Of a stretch of DNA of 64,000 bases, positions 235 through 60,555 are shown piece after piece; the stretch's first letter is position 1, and each line of letters begins with the position of its first letter. The position numbers and the translations under genes were made by a program. The stretch comes from Minisyncoccota bacterium (lineage in GTDB: Bacteria > Patescibacteriota > Minisyncoccia > Phycocordibacterales > GWA1-40-21), in contig JBAZRH010000001.1 in NCBI GenBank assembly GCA_041663045.1, positions 1,817 through 65,816 of the forward strand, read 5' to 3'. The notes below the pieces were generated by a model. The model made no database searches. It had not been told where the DNA came from and saw only the letters and a list, made by a program, of their open reading frames with translations.

Positions 235-308
235 GGGCGTATAGCTCAGGTGGTTAGAGCGCGTCACTGATAATGACGAGGTCCCAAGTTCGAGTCTTGG
301 TACGCCCA
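235..308 (+). tRNA. tRNA-Ile (anticodon GAT)
   Basis: Cloverleaf readable by eye. Acceptor gggcgta/tacgccc, D-arm tagctcaggtggttagagc, anticodon loop ctGATaa, T-arm ccaagttcgagtcttgg. No encoded CCA. Confidence 0.9.
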
Positions 309-316
309 CATTTTTA

Positions 317-43238: not shown

Positions 43239-43311
43239 GCCACCTTAGCTCAGTTGGTAGAGCAGCGCTTTTGTAAAGCGAAGGTCCCCAGTTCAAATCT
43301 GGGAGGTGGCT
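43239..43311 (+). tRNA. tRNA-Thr (anticodon TGT, tentative isotype)
   Basis: Acceptor gccacct/aggtggc (7/7), D-arm tagctcagttggtagagc, anticodon loop ttTGTaa, T-arm cccagttcaaatctggg, discriminator T. Confidence 0.8.
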
Positions 43312-43427
43312 CAATAAATAAACCCGAGAGGGCTTTTTTATGTTTCTTTTGCTGTAAGCGGGCGAGTATCACTATTTTTCATCACTGCTGAGAACCCCAA
43401 GTAAAACCAGAACACTTCTCGGTATCT

Positions 43428-45720: not shown

Positions 45721-46479
45721 ATGCAAAAACCAGAGGAAAATAGAGGACATCTACATCCGATAACCTTAGTATTTAATGATATGGTTAAGATTTTTTCCGA
45801 TATGGGTTTTGTATTAACCGATGGTCCAGAACTTGAAACAGAATATTATAACTTTGATGCCTTGAATTTTCCCAAAGATCATCCAGCTCGCGATATGCAG
45901 GATACTTTTTGGCTTAAACCAAATAAAAATATACCTGGTGTTGAAAACAAGCTTTTGAGACCTCAGACGAGTGCAATGCAGATTCACTATATGGAAGACA
46001 ATAAACCGCCACTTGCTATTATTTGTCCGGGTAAAGTTTATAGAAATGAAGCGACAGATGCGGGTCATGAAGCACAATTTCATCAGATAGAAGGATTACT
46101 GGTAGATAAAAAGATTTCTCTTGCTGATCTCAAGTCAACTCTGAATATCTTTTTTGATAAATTCTTTAAGAAAGATGTTGAGGTGAGATTTCGTCCAAGT
46201 TTTTTCCCTTTTGTTGAACCGGGTGTAGAAATAGACGTCTCTTGTTTCAAATGTAAAGGTGAAGGAAGTTGTCCAGTTTGCAAAGGCACCGGTTGGATAG
46301 AGATAATGGGAGCCGGGGCTGTTCATCCAAAAGTGTTGAATATTATCGGAATAAATCCAAATGAATTTACCGGTTTTGCCTTCGGTATGGGTGTGGATAG
46401 AATAGCGATGCTCAAATACGGCATTGATGATATTAGGTTGCTTTATTCCGGAGATTTGAGATTAGTTAATCAATTTTAA
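45721..46479 (+). CDS. pheS: phenylalanine--tRNA ligase alpha subunit (N-terminally short, 252 aa)
   Basis: Class II motifs: [46 protein letters not shown]. Lacks the usual ~90-aa N-terminal helical arm. Confidence 0.85.
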
Positions 46480-46480
46480 A

Positions 46481-48853
46481 ATGAAAGTATCATATAAATG
46501 GTTAAATGAATTCTTGGGAGGCAAAGCGCTAAAGGTTGGAAAATTTGCAGAGCTTTTGACTATGAATTCGGTGGAGATAGAGAGTATTGAAAAAGCTGGA
46601 GGTGATTTTGTACTTGATGCAAAAACTACGCCAAATTTGAATCATCATTTGCTTTGCCATAGAGGAATCGCTAGAGAAGCCGGCGTTCTTGCCGATATAA
46701 AAGTATCTCAATATTCAAGGGAATTTGCTAACTTGGAAGCCAGGCTTCCAAGTGAGAGAAAGCTTAAGGTAAATATTGTAGACGGGAAATTGTGTAGAAG
46801 ATATACCGGAAGAATTGTGGAAAATGTCAAAGTCGGTCCATCGCCGAAGTGGCTTGCGGAAAAACTTGAAATTCTCGGTCAAAGGTCAATAAATAATATT
46901 GTCGATGCCACAAACTTTCTTATGCTTGAGCTCGGCCAGCCGATGCATGCTTTTGATGCTGATAAATTGGCGAAAAGCGGGGAAGTCATTATATCCGTGC
47001 AAAATGCAAAAAAGGGCGACAAGATAGTCACTTTAGACAAAAAAGATATTGAATTGGACGAAAGTGTTCTTCTTATCACCGATGGTAAAAATCCTCTTGC
47101 TATTGCCGGAGTAAAAGGAGGAACATTTGCAGAGCTTGATGAAAATACGACAAATGTTGTATTGGAATCTGCCAATTTTGCACCAACTCTTATAAGAAAG
47201 ACATCCCAAAAATTTAAAATTCAAACTGACGCCTCAAAGAGATATGAAAATGATTTGACCCCTGAATTATGCGGAGAAGCTATGGATATTCTTACAAAAT
47301 TGATTGTTGAAATTGCCGGCACAAAAGATACAAAAGTCGGCGAAGTCGTGGACAATTATCCGCGACCTGCCGGAAAATACAAGCTCGGAATTTCTGCTGA
47401 AGAAGCAAGTGATATTATCGGTGTAAAAATAAGTGACAAAGAAATCGCAAAGATTTTTGACAGATTTGGATTTGAATATAAAAAAGTGAAGCCGATAGAT
47501 GAGGTGTTGAAGATGGCACCGACTTTTGTGGGAATACCGTACAAATACGGAGCAAGTGTTTCCTATGATGCGCCGAGGACTTTTGATTGTTCAGGGTTCA
47601 TTTGCTACCTTTTCCGAGAAACTGGCGTGGGGATACCAAGGACATCTATAGATCAATATGTTTTCGGTAAGCCGATTTCAGAAAAAGATTTGAGACTGGG
47701 GGATGAAGTATTTTCTAACACAAAAGAGGGCAAAATACATTATGAGACAAAAGAATTTTTGCCAGGTACAAAAGTGCCAGAAGGCGTGGATCATTGCGGT
47801 TTATATCTTGGAGATGGGAAGATAATCCATGCTACAGGCCTATTTGGCAAAGTAGTTATTGAAGATTTGAATAAATCGGATAGATTCAAAAATATTGTCG
47901 GCTATAGAAGAATGGCGGAAAACACAGAGAGATTTGTCATTACTGTGCCGGATGAGAGGTTAGACTTGAGAATCAAAGAAGATCTGGCAGAAGAAATCGG
48001 TAGAATTTATGGATATGACAAAATAAAAGATGTAAAAATATCAAATAATTCTGGGAAGACGATTTCAGATAAAGCGTATTTCTATAAAACAGAAGTCAGA
48101 AAAGTTCTTGTCTCTCTTGGTTTTTCCGAAATCATAAATTATACATTTAGAGAAAAAGGCGAGGTTGAATTGGCGAATACTATGTCTCCGGAAAAAAGAT
48201 TCTTGAGGACCAATCTTTCGGATGGATTAAAAGAAGCTTTAGAATTCAACGCCAGATATTCTGACTTTATCGATATGTCGCAGATAAAGATTTTTGAATT
48301 CGGACATATCTTTACAAAGAAAGGGGAGTTTGACCATTTTGCTATAGGTGCGAAGAATTCTTCTGGAGTGAAAAAGCCAAAAGAAATTGAAACTTTGGAT
48401 ATTGCGATAAAATCTATAGAAGAAAAGACCGGTCTTGTATTGAATAGAGGAAAAGAAGAAGTGGTGATAGAAGTAGATTTTTCTGATGCGATAAGAGATT
48501 TACCAGAAGCAAAAGAATATGATTTTACCGGTATTGAAAGTAAAGATATGAGATTCAGTAAAATATCGCAGTATCCATTTATGGTGCGAGATGTCGCCGT
48601 GTTTACTCCTGAAGGCACAAAACCGAAGGAGGTCTTTGAAATTATAGAAAAATGGGCAGGTATATTGATGGTCAAAAATAAACTCTTTGATGTATTTACC
48701 AAGAAGTTTCCGGACGGCACGAGCAAGATATCCTATGCTTATAGATTAGTATTTCAGTCTTATGAAAGGACACTTACGGATGACGAAGTAAATAAGATAA
48801 TGGAGAAAATCACTTCAGAATTAAATTCTCAAAAAGGCTGGCAGGTGAGATAA
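46481..48853 (+). CDS. pheT: phenylalanine--tRNA ligase beta subunit with inserted NlpC/P60 domain
   Basis: B3/4 (TPNLNHHLLCHRGIAREA..), B5 (DNYPRPAGKYKLGISAEE..FGFEY), core (VPDERLDLRIKEDLAEEIGRIYGYD) and FDX-ACB C-terminus. Residues ~345-470 are an NlpC/P60 domain (DCSGF, HCGLYLGDGKIIHA). Confidence 0.85.
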   Translation: MKVSYKWLNEFLGGKALKVGKFAELLTMNSVEIESIEKAGGDFVLDAKTTPNLNHHLLCHRGIAREAGVLADIKVSQYSREFANLEARLPSERKLKVNIVDGKLCRRYTGRIVENVKVGPSPKWLAEKLEILGQRSINNIVDATNFLMLELGQPMHAFDADKLAKSGEVIISVQNAKKGDKIVTLDKKDIELDESVLLITDGKNPLAIAGVKGGTFAELDENTTNVVLESANFAPTLIRKTSQKFKIQTDASKRYENDLTPELCGEAMDILTKLIVEIAGTKDTKVGEVVDNYPRPAGKYKLGISAEEASDIIGVKISDKEIAKIFDRFGFEYKKVKPIDEVLKMAPTFVGIPYKYGASVSYDAPRTFDCSGFICYLFRETGVGIPRTSIDQYVFGKPISEKDLRLGDEVFSNTKEGKIHYETKEFLPGTKVPEGVDHCGLYLGDGKIIHATGLFGKVVIEDLNKSDRFKNIVGYRRMAENTERFVITVPDERLDLRIKEDLAEEIGRIYGYDKIKDVKISNNSGKTISDKAYFYKTEVRKVLVSLGFSEIINYTFREKGEVELANTMSPEKRFLRTNLSDGLKEALEFNARYSDFIDMSQIKIFEFGHIFTKKGEFDHFAIGAKNSSGVKKPKEIETLDIAIKSIEEKTGLVLNRGKEEVVIEVDFSDAIRDLPEAKEYDFTGIESKDMRFSKISQYPFMVRDVAVFTPEGTKPKEVFEIIEKWAGILMVKNKLFDVFTKKFPDGTSKISYAYRLVFQSYERTLTDDEVNKIMEKITSELNSQKGWQVR

Positions 48854-57993: not shown

Positions 57994-59739
57994 TTATACT
58001 TTTTCTTCCCTTTCTTTTTTAACTTTCTCAATAAATTCTTTCAAATCCATTTGTCCTAGTGCCCCTTTATCTCTATTCTCCACAGTGATTTTGTTGGCAG
58101 AAATATCTTTGTCACCGACGATTATTGTGTAGGGGACTTTATTATTTTTTGCATCACGAACTTTTCCTCCCATGTTTCCTTCTTTTGTATCACAATCTAC
58201 TCTAAAGCCGGCGGTTTTTAGTTCGGCAGAAATCTTTTCCGCATATTCATTATGATTTTCTCTCACTGGCACGATTTTTACTTGCACAGGCGCAAGCCAA
58301 AGAGGGAAGGCACCGGCGTAGTGTTCAATAAGAATACCCATAAATCTTTCTGGGGAACCAATGATTGCTCTGTGAATCATAACTGGTGTTTTCTCTTTCC
58401 CATCTTTATCTGAATAGGTGAGTTTGAATCTTTCTGGCATTATAAGGTCGAGTTGAATTGTAGAGATCTGCCATTCTCTACCTAGAGAATCTTTTGTCAT
58501 AATGTCCATCTTTGGACCATATATTGCGGCTTCTCCAACAGCGACAATGTGCTCGATTTTATTTTCCTCAAGAAGCTCTCGGAGCAATTTCTGTGCTCTT
58601 TCCCAAACTTTTGCATCCCCAAGATATTTTTCTGGTTTTGCCGGATCCCAAAGAGAAAGGCGGATTTTATAATCCATCTTATAAGTGACAAGGGCTTTTT
58701 TGATAATGCCCAAAACATTTATAAATTCCTCCTTTATCTGATCTTCACGACAGAAAGCGTGTGCGTCATCTTGGCAGAAACATCGGAGTCTCGCTAGCCC
58801 GTTTAGTTCACCAGGTCTTTCATCTCTATATAAATTTGCAAAGTCCGCAATCCTTATCGGCAAATCTCTATAACTTCTAGATTGTGAAGCGTAGATTTGG
58901 GTGTGTTGAGGGCAGTTCATAGGCTTCAAAAAATATTCCTCCTTTGAATAGTTGGACATAACTTTTATCATATCTTCCTTGTATTTTTCATAATGTCCGG
59001 AGACCTTGAAGAGTTCAGCCTTATTTATGTTTGGCGTGTGAACCTCTTGATACCCGATACTTTGTTGAAGTTCGTTTGAATAATTTATTATTTCTTTTCT
59101 TATTGAAGCTCCTTTGAAAGTGTACATTGGAAGACCTGGCCCAACCAAATCTGAAAATACAAAAAGACCAAGTTCTTTACCGAGTTTCTTGTGATCACGA
59201 GCCCTCGCTTCTTCTTGCTGTTTTTCATAAGCAACAAGTTCATCTTTCGATGCAAAAGCTAGACCGTAAATGCGGGTGAGCATTTTATTTTTTTCGTCGC
59301 CTTTCCAATATGCACCGGCGATTCTCTCAAGCTTGAATGCATCTTTTGGAATATCTTTTATATCATTCACGTGAGGGCCAGCGCAGAGGTCGGTGAATTC
59401 GCCGGAAGTGTATGTGGTGAGCACCTGGCCGTCTTTTGTATAGTCGCCGATGAGTTCAAGCTTGTAAGGATTGCCGGCAAAAAGTTTTTTCGCATCTTTT
59501 TCGGAAATCTCAGTTTTTTCAAAACTCTCCCATTTCTTTAGAAGCTCATGCATTTTCTGCTCAACTTTTCCGAGATCTTTGTCGCTTATCGGGGCAGGGA
59601 ATTCAAAGTCATAATAAAACCCATTGTCTATCGCAGGCCCGGTAGCTATTTTCGCCTCCGGCCAAATATTTAAAACCGCAGCACCCAAAAGATGGGCTAG
59701 GGAATGTCTGATTTTATATAGTTTGTCTTCGTTATTCAT
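57994..59739 (-). CDS. thrS: threonine--tRNA ligase (lacks N-terminal TGS domain)
   Basis: Editing/second-domain HSLAHLLGAA, class II core (PMNCPQHTQIY, RDERPGELNGLARLRCFCQDDAH), anticodon-binding domain. Length 581 aa. Confidence 0.85.
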   Translation of the reverse strand: MNNEDKLYKIRHSLAHLLGAAVLNIWPEAKIATGPAIDNGFYYDFEFPAPISDKDLGKVEQKMHELLKKWESFEKTEISEKDAKKLFAGNPYKLELIGDYTKDGQVLTTYTSGEFTDLCAGPHVNDIKDIPKDAFKLERIAGAYWKGDEKNKMLTRIYGLAFASKDELVAYEKQQEEARARDHKKLGKELGLFVFSDLVGPGLPMYTFKGASIRKEIINYSNELQQSIGYQEVHTPNINKAELFKVSGHYEKYKEDMIKVMSNYSKEEYFLKPMNCPQHTQIYASQSRSYRDLPIRIADFANLYRDERPGELNGLARLRCFCQDDAHAFCREDQIKEEFINVLGIIKKALVTYKMDYKIRLSLWDPAKPEKYLGDAKVWERAQKLLRELLEENKIEHIVAVGEAAIYGPKMDIMTKDSLGREWQISTIQLDLIMPERFKLTYSDKDGKEKTPVMIHRAIIGSPERFMGILIEHYAGAFPLWLAPVQVKIVPVRENHNEYAEKISAELKTAGFRVDCDTKEGNMGGKVRDAKNNKVPYTIIVGDKDISANKITVENRDKGALGQMDLKEFIEKVKKEREEKV

Positions 59740-59744
59740 ATTAT

Positions 59745-59960
59745 TAAATTAATTAAATAAAATCGCCCCGATAAAAAACGAAAATTCGTTTTTTATCGGG
59801 GCGACTCAAATTCGCGGTTCCACCCGACTTTCTCGCCCGAACAAATTCTTATTTGTTTTAGGGTTACTCTTTTGGACAGAAATTGTTTTTCCTTGTGGTT
59901 GGTAGCCACAACAATCTCTGCTTCTCTTATATAATAGCAACTAGCTTTTGGATGTCAAAT
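59745..59960 (-). promoter_or_regulatory. thrS leader with T-box riboswitch (promoter, T-box sequence, terminator/antiterminator)
   Basis: Minus strand: TTGACA-16-TATTAT promoter (59959-59931), then leader containing AAAGUCGGGUGGAACCGCG (T-box consensus AGGGUGGNACCGCG, plus coords 59813-59825). Terminator hairpin 59764-59803 + U-run just before the thrS ATG. Confidence 0.7.
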
Positions 59961-60003
59961 ATACTCTTTACGACCATATTTGCTACCGTCGTGTTCCGTA
60001 GCT

Positions 60004-60555
60004 CTAAATATCAAATTGTCTGACAGTGCTATTACCCGGAGTATTTATAATATTTCTTAGAAGTAATAGATTCATTATTTTCATAATACCGCCATGAGCT
60101 ATTATTAGGACTTTTTTGTCAGAATATTGACTTTTGAGTTCTTCGATAAATCTCAATACTCTCTCTTTTACGTCTTCAACAGATTCTCCGCCATATGGTC
60201 TATAATTATATTTCTGTTCCAAGTCGGTCATCTTAAAATTGACATTGACTTCTTTAATGGCGCTATCCATTTCTTCCCAACTCTTTCCTGACATACTTCC
60301 AAAATCTCTTTCTGATATTTCCTTTTTCTCTATAATAGGTATCTTTATTTTTGCTGCGATAATCTCCGCAGTCTCACGGGCTCTTTTCAGAGGGGATGTA
60401 AATATAACATCAAAGTCGTTAATGTTAATATTTTTTATTAATTCTTGTATCTGTCTAACTCCTTCTATGTTTAACGATTCATCAACAAGTTGCCCCATTA
60501 GTTTGTGAGCTTTATTTGAATCTGTCTCTCCGTGTCTAACGACAAATATTTTCAT
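60004..60555 (-). CDS. histidine phosphatase family protein (second copy)
   Basis: RHGETDSN motif at the N-terminus, AHGG near the C-terminus. Paralog of 32725-33237. Confidence 0.65.
   Translation of the reverse strand: MKIFVVRHGETDSNKAHKLMGQLVDESLNIEGVRQIQELIKNININDFDVIFTSPLKRARETAEIIAAKIKIPIIEKKEISERDFGSMSGKSWEEMDSAIKEVNVNFKMTDLEQKYNYRPYGGESVEDVKERVLRFIEELKSQYSDKKVLIIAHGGIMKIMNLLLLRNIINTPGNSTVRQFDI

What the first reader, a model, noticed from the sequence alone, without database searches (positions are those of the whole stretch)
59745..59960. T-box riboswitch leader for thrS, with the UGGA bulge matching the U discriminator of the tRNA-Thr in this window
On the minus strand, a TTGACA-16-TATTAT promoter is followed by a ~180-nt leader ending in a strong terminator hairpin immediately before the thrS ATG. 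The leader contains AAAGUCGGGUGGAACCGCG, matching the T-box consensus (AGGGUGGNACCGCG). The variable N is A, which would pair with a U discriminator. The tRNA-Thr at 43239-43311 indeed has discriminator T. A candidate specifier context (gcuACCAacc, Thr codon ACC followed by A) occurs in an upstream hairpin. T-box regulation is known mainly in Firmicutes and a few other phyla, so its presence here bears on how this organism regulates its aminoacyl-tRNA synthetases.
Basis: partly seen in the sequence, partly recalled or inferred. Interest (0 to 1): 0.5.

Follow-up and report, generated by a model that had tools for sequence, protein, structure and literature searches.

The report
Minimal T-box riboswitch before thrS
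The leader of the threonyl-tRNA synthetase gene in this Candidatus Paceibacterota (CPR) genome is a real tRNA-sensing T-box riboswitch, but an unusually stripped-down one that standard annotation misses, which makes it a natural test of how little RNA a T-box needs.

Summary
On the minus strand, a TTGACA-16-TATTAT promoter (59958-59931) is followed by a ~170-nt leader. The leader holds a perfect T-box core (GGGUGGAACCGCG), an antiterminator (59828-59795) whose 3' strand lies inside a 20-bp terminator (59806-59761) with a U-tract, and then the thrS ATG at 59739.

Rfam RF00230 scores only 28 bits (threshold 93), because the 5' half is not a canonical Stem I. The tRNA-decoding part is one 44-nt hairpin (59920-59877). 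It has a 9-bp lower helix, a 7-nt purine bulge, a 6-bp upper helix and a 7-nt apical loop CUACCAA that presents the Thr codon ACC. I found no elbow-binding platform, K-turn, S-turn or Stem II pseudoknot.

Twenty-six more thrS leaders from CPR bacteria share the design: 9 are of the window type (window included), 17 are a junction type and one is divergent. Helices covary strongly, the triplet is always ACC or ACU, and the bulge is always UGGA, matching the U73 of the window's tRNA-Thr. A covariance model built without the window finds it at 70 bits (E about 4e-12).

Verdict: a genuine transcriptional T-box and a new structural variant of a known kind. I found no description of it in the literature available here. 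tRNA binding itself is untested.

The parts
59931..59958 (-). Sigma-70-type promoter: TTGACA (59958-59953), 16-nt spacer with TG extension, TATTAT (59936-59931). The inferred transcription start is near 59925.
   Evidence: 11/12 match. The same TTGACA-17-TAT(T/C)AT sits about 8-10 nt upstream of the first helix in relatives L202, L205, L209 and L210. The start site is inferred, not measured.
59877..59920 (-). Decoding domain (ultrashort Stem I), a single hairpin. Lower helix CAGAGAUUG (59920-59912) pairs with CAAUUUCUG (59885-59877). Purine bulge GGAAAAA (59892-59886). Upper helix UUGUGG (59911-59906) pairs with CCACAA (59898-59893).
   Evidence: Present in the minimum-free-energy and centroid folds. 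Nine window-type leaders give 92.3% paired cells against at most 50% when partners are slid, and 9 of 13 pairs show changes on both sides.
59899..59905 (-). Apical 7-nt specifier loop CUACCAA. The Thr specifier ACC is at 59903-59901, followed by the conserved purine A at 59900.
   Evidence: Loop is CUACCAA in 11, CCACCAA in 3 and CUACUAA in 2 of the 19 leaders parsed; the rest are variants. The triplet is always ACC or ACU.
59867..59875 (-). Purine-rich linker CCAAAAGAG. It resembles the RRRxG purine string that precedes Stem III in known T-boxes.
   Evidence: AAAAGAG/AAAGAG/AAGAG recurs at this place in the relatives. The motif definition comes from PMC7583486, Table 1.
59836..59863 (-). Stem III hairpin: CCC-UAA-AACAAAU-AAGA-AUUUGUU-C-GGG.
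   Evidence: Folds. Stem III covaries in relatives (helix 3). It is absent in L205 and L209.
59795..59828 (-). T-box sequence and antiterminator. Helix A1: GUCGGG (59828-59823) pairs with CCCGAU (59800-59795). 7-nt bulge UGGAACC (59822-59816), in which UGGA (59822-59819) pairs with the tRNA 3' end UCCA. Helix A2: GCGA (59815-59812) pairs with UCGC (59804-59801). Loop AUUUGAG.
   Evidence: RF00230 aligns this half at posterior probability near 1. A1 and A2 covary in relatives (helices 4 and 5). The antiterminator conformer evaluates to -33.2 kcal/mol.
59751..59806 (-). Intrinsic terminator: 20-bp hairpin (59806-59761) plus U-rich tract (59762-59751). Its 5' arm contains the whole 3' strand of the antiterminator.
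   Evidence: terminator conformer -55.3 kcal/mol. Each of the 19 relatives parsed has an equivalent hairpin followed by a U-run.
57994..59739 (-). thrS, threonyl-tRNA synthetase, 581 aa (tRNA_SAD, class II core and anticodon-binding domains; no TGS domain). This is the regulated gene.
   Evidence: 100% identical to MFA6226915.1, Candidatus Paceibacterota.
43239..43311 (+). tRNA-Thr(UGU) with discriminator U73 and no encoded CCA. It is a possible ligand: a perfect NCCA match, with a wobble-position mismatch to ACC.

Best explanation
This is a tRNA-Thr-sensing T-box riboswitch that controls thrS by transcription attenuation. It is built on a minimal architecture.

Proposed mechanism, step by step:
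1. Transcription starts near 59925.
2. The first 44 structured nucleotides fold into one hairpin. Its 7-nt, anticodon-loop-like apical loop (CUACCAA) displays the Thr codon ACC followed by A.
3. The anticodon of tRNA-Thr pairs with ACC as a loop-loop contact.
4. If the tRNA is uncharged, its 3' end U73-C-C-A pairs with UGGA in the 7-nt T-box bulge. This stabilises the antiterminator (59828-59795), and RNA polymerase reads through into thrS.
5. If the tRNA is threonylated, the antiterminator is not stabilised. The much more stable terminator (59806-59761 plus U-tract) forms and transcription stops 22 nt before the ATG.

Shown here: the sequence elements, the mutually exclusive folds, covariation of every helix, a codon and discriminator match that tracks Thr, and conservation upstream of thrS in many CPR genomes.

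Inferred from the established T-box mechanism: tRNA binding, discrimination of charged from uncharged tRNA, and the start site.

Speculative: the A-rich bulge (or, in the junction-type relatives, the conserved GAUUG/CUAA internal loop) may replace the K-turn, Stem II and elbow platform. [quoted passage not shown]
For: - The T-box core is perfect, and RF00230 aligns the 3' half at high confidence.
- The antiterminator and terminator are mutually exclusive. The two conformers evaluate to -33.2 and -55.3 kcal/mol, so the default state is OFF, as in known T-boxes. The full leader folds with z = -7.5.
- UGGA is complementary to the U73-CCA end of the window's tRNA-Thr. UGGA is present in all 27 leaders.
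- The specifier is ACC in 24 leaders and ACU in 3 (L205, L208, L213). These are synonymous Thr codons, always at loop positions 3-5 and followed by a purine.
- Covariation on a MAFFT alignment of 12 relatives, window excluded: 89.9% paired against 64% in shuffles, 96 cells with changes on both sides against 32.8, and a sharp peak at slide 0.
- The helix formed by the 4 nt before GAUUG and the 4 nt after CUAA pairs fully in 14 of 14 junction-type leaders, with 13 distinct helices among the 15 tabulated.
- The window-type hairpin is supported by 9 leaders, with compensatory changes such as GAUUG/CAAUU to AACCG/CGGUU.
- Model R1, built without the window, finds it at 70.2 bits, above the best score of 49 bits among the other hits (L162; of these, L168 at 47.4 bits was inspected and is a canonical T-box).
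- The element is always just upstream of thrS, or of a GNAT-thrS operon in L017, even though the genes further upstream differ.
- The promoter lies about 10 nt upstream of the first helix, which leaves no room for a longer Stem I.
Against: - RF00230 reaches only 28.2 bits against a gathering score of 93.
- The hallmark Stem I features are absent: K-turn, S-turn specifier loop, AG bulge and distal-loop platform. So are the Stem II pseudoknot and F-box.
- According to the review PMC7583486, the elbow platform is essential in transcriptional T-boxes, and Stem II is essential when Stem I is truncated. Function of this minimal form is therefore not guaranteed by precedent.
- The only tRNA-Thr in the window (UGU) mismatches ACC at the wobble position. 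No tRNA-Thr(GGU) was available to check.
- The closing pair of helix A2 is G-C in the window, not the G-U described as the steric sensor. It is G-U in 8 and G-C in 4 of 12 relatives.
- Presence is patchy: L001, L002 and L211 lack the element.
- No experimental data exist.
Confidence: 0.87

Rival explanations
1. The element is a decayed, non-functional T-box relic. The 3' half (T-box plus terminator) survives, but loss of the canonical Stem I means it no longer senses tRNA. The hairpin then acts only as a constitutive or leaky terminator or attenuator in front of thrS.
For: The Rfam score is far below threshold. The parts that the review calls essential are absent. Presence among close relatives is patchy.
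Against: A relic would not keep covarying helices, an invariant UGGA, and a loop triplet restricted to ACC or ACU across 27 leaders whose ThrRS identity falls as low as 46%. A constitutive 20-bp terminator in front of an essential single-copy synthetase gene would be strongly selected against unless it could be overridden.
Confidence: 0.06
2. The element is a ThrRS autoregulatory operator of the E. coli thrS type. In that system, hairpins in the leader mimic the tRNA-Thr anticodon arm, and the synthetase binds them to repress its own expression.
For: A 7-nt, anticodon-loop-like hairpin loop sits in the leader of thrS.
Against: The loop carries ACC, the complement of a Thr anticodon, and not an NGU anticodon mimic. 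The window's own tRNA-Thr loop is UUUGUAA. The hairpin is about 160 nt from the start codon and does not overlap a ribosome-binding site. This model does not explain the T-box bulge or the antiterminator/terminator switch. The description of the E. coli operator is from my own knowledge and was not checked here.
Confidence: 0.02
3. The element is a T-box that acts on translation or mRNA stability rather than on transcription termination, like the Actinobacterial short-Stem-I T-boxes.
For: The apical-loop specifier and short Stem I are otherwise known from translational T-boxes (PMC7583486).
Against: The alternative hairpin is a textbook intrinsic terminator: 20 bp, 9 G-C pairs, followed by UUUUAUUU. 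It ends 22 nt before the ATG and sequesters no recognisable Shine-Dalgarno sequence. Each of the 19 relatives parsed has a hairpin followed by a U-run.
Confidence: 0.05

Closest known systems
Canonical transcriptional T-box leaders (Rfam RF00230; for example Bacillus subtilis tyrS, thrS and glyQS)
   Same: - The 14-nt T-box sequence.
- A 7-nt bulge whose UGGN pairs with the tRNA NCCA end.
- An A1/A2 antiterminator that competes with an intrinsic terminator.
- Stem III preceded by a purine string.
- A specifier codon followed by a purine, matching the amino acid of the regulated aminoacyl-tRNA synthetase. From my own knowledge, ACC is also the specifier of Bacillus thrS.
   Different: - Stem I is about 44 nt instead of about 90-100 nt.
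- The specifier sits in an apical 7-nt loop, not in an internal loop with an S-turn.
- There is no K-turn, no AG bulge and no distal-loop (double T-loop) platform for the tRNA elbow.
- There is no Stem II, no IIA/B pseudoknot and no F-box.
- RF00230 scores 28 bits against a threshold of 93.
- The host is a CPR bacterium.
Actinobacterial ileS T-boxes with an 'ultrashort' Stem I (Sherwood et al. 2015, as cited in PMC7583486; structures 6UFM from Nocardia farcinica and 6UFG from Mycobacterium tuberculosis)
   Same: A short Stem I that lacks the elbow platform, with the specifier mounted in the apical loop and followed by a purine (PMC7583486 section 3).
   Different: - Those act on translation by sequestering the Shine-Dalgarno sequence. 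This one has a terminator with a U-tract.
- Those need a K-turn plus a Stem II S-turn and a IIA/B pseudoknot to bind tRNA. The window leader has none of these, only a 7-nt purine bulge.
- The junction-type relatives instead have two small hairpins and a conserved GAUUG/CUAA internal loop closed by a covarying helix.
- The regulated gene is thrS, not ileS.
Glycine (glyQS) T-boxes
   Same: They lack the Stem II domain (PMC11297988 introduction), so Stem I connects to the discriminator through a linker, as in the window leader.
   Different: glyQS keeps the long Stem I with K-turn and elbow platform. The window leader does not.
E. coli thrS translational operator (tRNA-Thr anticodon-arm mimic bound by ThrRS)
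   Same: It is a leader of thrS that contains a hairpin resembling an anticodon arm.
   Different: Here the loop carries the codon, not the anticodon, and the leader has a complete T-box discriminator. The element binds tRNA, not the protein. This comparison is from my own knowledge.

Membership tests
T-box leader (RF00230) | Conserved T-box sequence AGGGUGGNACCGCG | tested here: met
   GUCGGGUGGAACCGCG at 59828-59813. It is the only GGTGGNACCRCG in the window and aligns to RF00230 positions about 185-200 at posterior probability near 1.
T-box leader (RF00230) | Antiterminator (helices A1 and A2 with a 7-nt bulge) mutually exclusive with a terminator or sequestrator | tested here: met
   A1 has 6 bp, the bulge is UGGAACC, and A2 has 4 bp. 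The 3' strand (59804-59795) lies inside the terminator 5' arm. The two conformers evaluate to -33.2 and -55.3 kcal/mol. A1 and A2 covary in relatives.
T-box leader (RF00230) | The variable bulge base is complementary to the discriminator base of the cognate tRNA | tested here: met
   N = A, and the window's tRNA-Thr has U73. UGGA is present in all 27 CPR thrS leaders. Only this one CPR tRNA-Thr could be inspected.
T-box leader (RF00230) | Specifier codon, followed by a purine, that matches the amino acid of the regulated gene | tested here: met
   ACC-A in the window. ACC in 24 and ACU in 3 of 27 leaders, all upstream of thrS.
T-box leader (RF00230) | Long Stem I with K-turn, an S-turn-containing internal specifier loop, an AG bulge and a distal loop (interdigitated T-loop platform) | tested here: not met
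   The 5' half does not align to the model. The promoter leaves only about 5 nt before the 44-nt hairpin. No conserved GAUGA, AGUA...GAA or platform motifs were found. AGAGA is seen in 12 of 24 leaders, but only as part of the variable first helix.
T-box leader (RF00230) | Stem II with S-turn, and Stem IIA/B pseudoknot with F-box (optional; absent in glycine T-boxes) | tested here: not met
   The window has only GGAAAAA between the two helices of its Stem I hairpin. The F-box CCGUUA occurs in 1 of 24 leaders and AGUA in 4 of 24.
T-box leader (RF00230) | Stem III flanked by a purine string and AA | tested here: met
   AAAAGAG (59873-59867), a hairpin at 59863-59836, then CGAGAAA before helix A1. 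The spacing is looser than the RRRxG-stem-AA consensus.
T-box leader (RF00230) | Score at or above Rfam's gathering threshold | tested here: not met
   28.2 bits against 93. None of the 15 relatives scanned at the gathering threshold reached it, and the T-box matches reported for six further relatives score 29.6-35.9 bits.
T-box leader (RF00230) | Uncharged cognate tRNA promotes readthrough | not testable with these tools
   This needs in vitro transcription or binding assays.
Actinobacterial ultrashort-Stem-I translational T-box (ileS type) | Specifier in the apical loop of a short Stem I that lacks the elbow platform | tested here: met
   7-nt apical loop CUACCAA on a 6-bp helix. The family definition is from PMC7583486.
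Actinobacterial ultrashort-Stem-I translational T-box (ileS type) | K-turn plus Stem II S-turn and IIA/B pseudoknot that clamp the codon-anticodon helix | tested here: not met
   None is present in the window leader. I tried to map a K-turn onto GAUUG/CUAA in the relatives, but it did not fit consistently.
Actinobacterial ultrashort-Stem-I translational T-box (ileS type) | The expression platform sequesters the Shine-Dalgarno sequence | tested here: not met
   The platform is an intrinsic terminator with a U-tract that ends 22 nt upstream of the ATG.
E. coli-type thrS operator | Hairpin loops mimic the tRNA-Thr anticodon (NGU) and overlap the ribosome-binding site | tested here: not met
   The loop holds ACC, the complement of the anticodon, and lies about 160 nt upstream of the ATG.

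The most novel reading that the evidence does not exclude
CPR (Patescibacteria) bacteria may carry a previously uncatalogued class of minimal transcriptional T-boxes. In this reading, these recognise tRNA-Thr through only two base-paired contacts: an anticodon-loop-like specifier hairpin and the NCCA-binding bulge. They would have no elbow platform, no K-turn and no Stem II, and in some members (L205, L209) no Stem III. From the first helix to the end of the antiterminator they span about 90 nt in L205 and L209 and 126 nt in the window, which may make them the smallest natural T-boxes. An A-rich bulge, or a GAU/UAA-type internal loop in the junction-type relatives, would take over the stabilising and bending roles of the missing modules.
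Probability: 0.5. Interest if true: 0.75.

Novelty: new variant of a known kind. Interest (0 to 1): 0.6.

Why it matters
- **It challenges current requirements.** T-box structural biology holds that transcriptional T-boxes need the elbow-binding platform for fast co-transcriptional tRNA capture. It also holds that truncated Stem I variants need a K-turn and a Stem II S-turn (PMC7583486). That review asks explicitly whether any T-box can work without a K-turn.
- **It offers natural test material.** These leaders come as a graded series: junction type, then window-type single hairpin, then forms without Stem III. This makes the question directly testable and gives compact scaffolds for engineering tRNA sensors.
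- **It extends T-box regulation to a new group.** T-box regulation reaches an ultra-small-genome radiation where almost nothing is known about gene regulation. In the sequence examined here, thrS is the only synthetase gene that has one.
- **It exposes an annotation gap.** Rfam-threshold annotation misses the whole group, so T-box censuses under-count them.

Tried and rejected
1. **Metagenome pattern scan.** Only L083, L094, L132 and L200 were true thrS-type members, and L108 was a glyS leader found by luck. So I could not test whether the architecture serves other amino acids.
2. **First idea about GAUUG.** I first thought the invariant GAUUG pairs with a downstream CAAUY-like sequence in all leaders. 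I rejected this for the junction type. The pairing that covaries there is the 4 nt before GAUUG with the 4 nt after CUAA. GAUUG/CAAUU pairing holds only in the window type.
3. **K-turn mapping.** I tried to map a K-turn onto GAUUG/CUAA. There is no 3-nt bulge, and the G-A pair expected next to the bulge would be A-A. The required flanking helix is not consistently present. Rejected.
4. **UAA/GAN internal-loop motif.** The GAU/UAA signature fits my recollection of this motif, but the literature search could not retrieve it. It remains only a lead.
5. **The window's CCCUAA.** MAFFT and the covariance model aligned the window's CCCUAA (59863-59858) with the CUAA motif of the relatives. I rejected this alignment because the bases that follow cannot pair with CAGA. 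CCCUAA belongs to Stem III here.
6. **tRNA scan.** A tRNA scan of 58 related loci found nothing, so no CPR tRNA-Thr(GGU) could be checked.
7. **Motif regex scan.** The scan is crude. Its 'distal loop' pattern matched the T-box itself and should be ignored.
8. **Literature.** Sherwood et al. 2015 (PMC4313828) is not held, so I used the description in PMC7583486. Searches linking T-boxes to CPR, Patescibacteria or Parcubacteria found nothing. That is absence in this library, not proof of novelty.
9. **Taxon of L108.** It could not be established.
Full report
**1. What is in the sequence**

Reading the minus strand of 59500-60200 shows, in order:
- the end of a histidine-phosphatase-family gene (60555-60004);
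- a near-consensus promoter: TTGACA (59958-59953), a 16-nt spacer with a TG extension, TATTAT (59936-59931);
- a leader of about 170 nt;
- the ATG of a 581-aa threonyl-tRNA synthetase at 59739.

The leader contains GUCGGGUGGAACCGCG (59828-59813), which is the only GGTGGNACCRCG in the 64 kb. It also contains a 20-bp hairpin followed by UUUUAUUU (59806-59751). The tRNA-Thr at 43239-43311 has anticodon UGU, discriminator U and no encoded CCA.

**2. The Rfam test**

At gathering thresholds the window yields only three tRNAs. In a permissive search of 59600-60100, RF00230 (T-box) matches 59794-59986(-) at 28.2 bits. This is far below the gathering score of 93, with E=1.8e-4 for that small search.

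The alignment is informative. The 3' part (purine linker, T-box sequence, 7-nt bulge, helices A1 and A2) aligns at posterior probability near 1. The Stem I and Stem II part aligns poorly, with many non-pairs. So the discriminator half is canonical and the decoding half is not.

**3. Anatomy of the window leader** (coordinates, folds)

| Element | Sequence | Coordinates |
|---|---|---|
| Lower helix | CAGAGAUUG / CAAUUUCUG | 59920-59912 / 59885-59877 |
| Upper helix | UUGUGG / CCACAA | 59911-59906 / 59898-59893 |
| Apical loop | CUACCAA (ACC at 59903-59901, then A) | 59905-59899 |
| 3'-side bulge | GGAAAAA | 59892-59886 |
| Purine linker | CCAAAAGAG | 59875-59867 |
| Stem III | hairpin | 59863-59836 |
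| Helix A1 | GUCGGG / CCCGAU | 59828-59823 / 59800-59795 |
| T-box bulge | UGGAACC | 59822-59816 |
| Helix A2 | GCGA / UCGC | 59815-59812 / 59804-59801 |
| Terminator | 20-bp hairpin | 59806-59761 |

- All ten 3'-strand nucleotides of the antiterminator lie inside the 5' arm of the terminator.
- With the same 5' domain, the antiterminator conformer evaluates to -33.2 kcal/mol and the terminator conformer to -55.3 kcal/mol. This is the usual default-OFF arrangement.
- The whole leader folds at -64.1 kcal/mol, z = -7.5 against shuffles.
- The promoter leaves only about 5 nt before the first helix, so there is no room for a long Stem I upstream. This is an inference from the consensus promoter. 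The same promoter position recurs in relatives.

**4. Organism**

The ThrRS is 100% identical to MFA6226915.1 from a Candidatus Paceibacterota metagenome-assembled genome, on a 428,695-nt contig. Its nearest relatives are Zambryskibacteria, Paceibacteria and other Patescibacteria. This is a CPR bacterium.

**5. Comparative evidence**

I collected thrS loci from three sources:
- one genome per species;
- a metagenome pattern scan, which was mostly noise;
- contigs encoding the closest ThrRS proteins.

Twenty-six further leaders carry [G/A]GUGGAACC upstream of thrS. Two architectures share the same discriminator.

(a) Junction type, 17 leaders: L003-L008, L017, L055, L065, L079, L083, L094, L132, L200, L201, L204 and L207.
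- A 4-5-bp helix is formed by the bases just 5' of an invariant GAUUG and just 3' of a conserved CUAA.
- This helix encloses the specifier hairpin and two small variable hairpins.
- The closing helix pairs fully in 14 of 14 leaders analysed, with 13 distinct helices among the 15 tabulated. Mismatched partners from different leaders give 1.97 of 4 pairs on average.

(b) Window type, 9 leaders: the window, L202, L205, L208, L209, L210, L212, L213 and L214.
- The small hairpins and CUAA are replaced by a 7-10-nt A-rich bulge plus CAAUU, which pairs with GAUUG to give one continuous hairpin.
- Compensatory changes support this pairing: AACCG/CGGUU in L209, AAUUG/CGAUU in L208, GAUUG/CAGUC in L213 and GAUUUG/CAAAUC in L214.
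- On the MAFFT alignment of these 9 leaders, 92.3% of cells pair, against at most 50% when partners are slid. Nine of 13 pairs show changes on both sides.

For 12 junction-type leaders, with the window excluded and a MAFFT alignment not fitted to structure:
- The five-helix model gives 89.9% paired cells against 64.0% in shuffles.
- It gives 96 cells with changes on both sides against 32.8, and a covariation score of 0.765 against 0.255.
- The slide control peaks sharply at 0.

One further leader, L039, is divergent. Its T-box reads GAGUGGAACCUCC, with a compensated UCC/GGA helix A2.

**6. Evidence that the loop triplet is the specifier**

- The apical loop is CUACCAA, CCACCAA, GCACCAA, UUACCAG, CCACCAC or CUACCGA, or a 9-nt variant.
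- In three leaders it is CUACUAA.
- The triplet at loop positions 3-5 is ACC in 24 leaders and ACU in 3. Both are Thr codons. It is followed by a purine, as in all T-boxes.
- The bulge is UGGA in every leader, matching the U73 of the one CPR tRNA-Thr available.

**7. Independent detection**

Model R1 was built from the 12 junction-type leaders only.
- It finds the window at 59795-59924(-) with 70.2 bits, E about 4e-12, covering the full length of the model. These E-values are rough because calibration was shortened.
- It also finds leaders that were not used for training: L055, L065, L039 and L201-L210.
- The strongest other hits among the metagenome loci score 47-49 bits (L162, L168). L168, the one inspected, is a canonical T-box, presumably matched through the shared 3' half.
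- None of the CPR leaders reaches RF00230's gathering score. The T-box matches reported score 28-36 bits.

**8. Mechanism**

The shared core makes the established T-box mechanism the best explanation. The anticodon of tRNA-Thr pairs with ACC. The free 3' end UCCA pairs with UGGA and stabilises the antiterminator, so polymerase reads through into thrS. Threonyl-tRNA cannot do this, and the terminator forms.

- Shown: the elements, their mutual exclusion, covariation, and the match of codon and discriminator to Thr.
- Inferred: tRNA binding and sensing of the charge state.
- Speculative: how a transcriptional T-box manages without the elbow platform, K-turn and Stem II. The specifier loop has the format of an anticodon loop (7 nt, pyrimidine at position 2, purine at position 6), so the contact would be a loop-loop complex. 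[quoted passage not shown] The Stem II purine string does the latter in ileS T-boxes.

**9. Caveats**

- The in-window tRNA-Thr(UGU) mismatches ACC at the wobble position. Tolerance of such mismatches has precedent: the S. aureus glyS T-box responds to both GCC and UCC isoacceptors (abstract of PMC4574755). A GGU isoacceptor elsewhere in the genome is nevertheless the likelier ligand, and I could not look for it.
- The closing pair of helix A2 is G-C in the window, not the G-U described as the steric sensor. Relatives have G-U in 8 and G-C in 4.
- In the truncated leader, the minimum-free-energy fold pairs an upstream CGGGCG with the antiterminator 3' strand. This alternative is unexplained.
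- The element is absent from some close relatives: L001, L002 and L211.

**10. Comparison with what is known**

- Apical-loop specifiers on short Stem I are known, but in translational Actinobacterial ileS T-boxes. Those depend on a K-turn, a Stem II S-turn and a pseudoknot.
- Transcriptional T-boxes are said to require the long Stem I with the elbow platform.
- The window leader has a transcription terminator with an ultrashort Stem I and none of those helper modules. Two relatives (L205, L209) also lack Stem III.
- Rival readings fit the data poorly. These are a decayed relic, an E. coli-type ThrRS operator, and translational control.
- No paper in the held library connects T-boxes with CPR or Patescibacteria. 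This does not prove that the variant is undescribed.

**11. Scope within the window**

The only other synthetase operon in the window, pheS-pheT (45721-48853), has a 47-nt upstream gap and no T-box.

**12. Verdict**

This is a genuine T-box riboswitch for thrS. It is a new structural variant of a known kind, with moderate-to-high specialist interest. It provides natural minimal T-boxes that bear on which modules are truly required.

Noticed in passing
window 46481-48853 (+): The PheRS beta subunit (B3_4, B5 and FDX-ACB domains) also gives an NlpC/P60 peptidase-domain hit at residues 351-420 (E=2.8e-17). This would be an unusual insertion between the B3_4 and B5 domains.
   Followed up: no
L108 1219-1311 (+) (metagenome contig Ga0265316_10190479): This is a very short T-box in front of a GlyRS gene. 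It has a K-turn-like base (GUAAGC-GUU-GA ... GA-GCUUAC), a 4-bp helix and a 10-nt apical loop AGAUUGGCGC that carries the Gly codon GGC. It has no Stem II but does have Stem III, a UGGA bulge and a terminator. So ultrashort transcriptional T-boxes may not be limited to thrS. The taxon is unknown.
   Followed up: partly
L205 765-856 and L209 453-541: These are thrS leaders from 80%-identical ThrRS relatives. They have the window-type hairpin but no Stem III at all. Only 13-15 nt (for example GGUAAAGAGUUAAAA) separate the first domain from the antiterminator. [quoted passage not shown]
   Followed up: partly
L017 1755-1896, ORFs 1942-2517 and 2474 onwards: Here the T-box precedes a GNAT-type acetyltransferase-like ORF that overlaps the start of thrS. 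The riboswitch would therefore control a two-gene operon. The acetyltransferase assignment is by eye and was not checked against Pfam.
   Followed up: no
L039 1075-1202: This is a divergent thrS leader whose T-box reads GAGUGGAACCUCC. Helix A2 has changed from GCG/CGC to UCC/GGA, which is a compensatory change. The nearby hairpin does not obviously overlap the antiterminator.
   Followed up: no
window 59839-59833 (-) and 59806-59797 (-): UCGGGCGA, at the 3' end of Stem III, is nearly complementary to UCGCCCCGA of the antiterminator 3' strand. It pairs with that strand in the minimum-free-energy fold of the truncated leader. This may be a third alternative pairing. Its role is unexplained.
   Followed up: no
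window 57994-59739 (-): ThrRS is 581 aa and begins at the tRNA_SAD editing domain, with no N-terminal TGS domain. Most of the CPR relatives listed have similar lengths (about 550-635 aa).
   Followed up: no
L001, L002 and L211, upstream of thrS: These close relatives (67-79% ThrRS identity) have no T-box, while L201-L210 do. Junction-type and window-type leaders are also interleaved among proteins of 73-90% identity. This suggests repeated loss and remodelling.
   Followed up: partly
window 235-309, 553-637 and 43239-43312 (+): Of the three tRNA genes (Ile-GAU, Leu-CAG, Thr-UGU), the tRNA-Thr gene was inspected and lacks an encoded CCA end. The T-box ligand therefore depends on CCA addition. 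The other two were not inspected for CCA.
   Followed up: no
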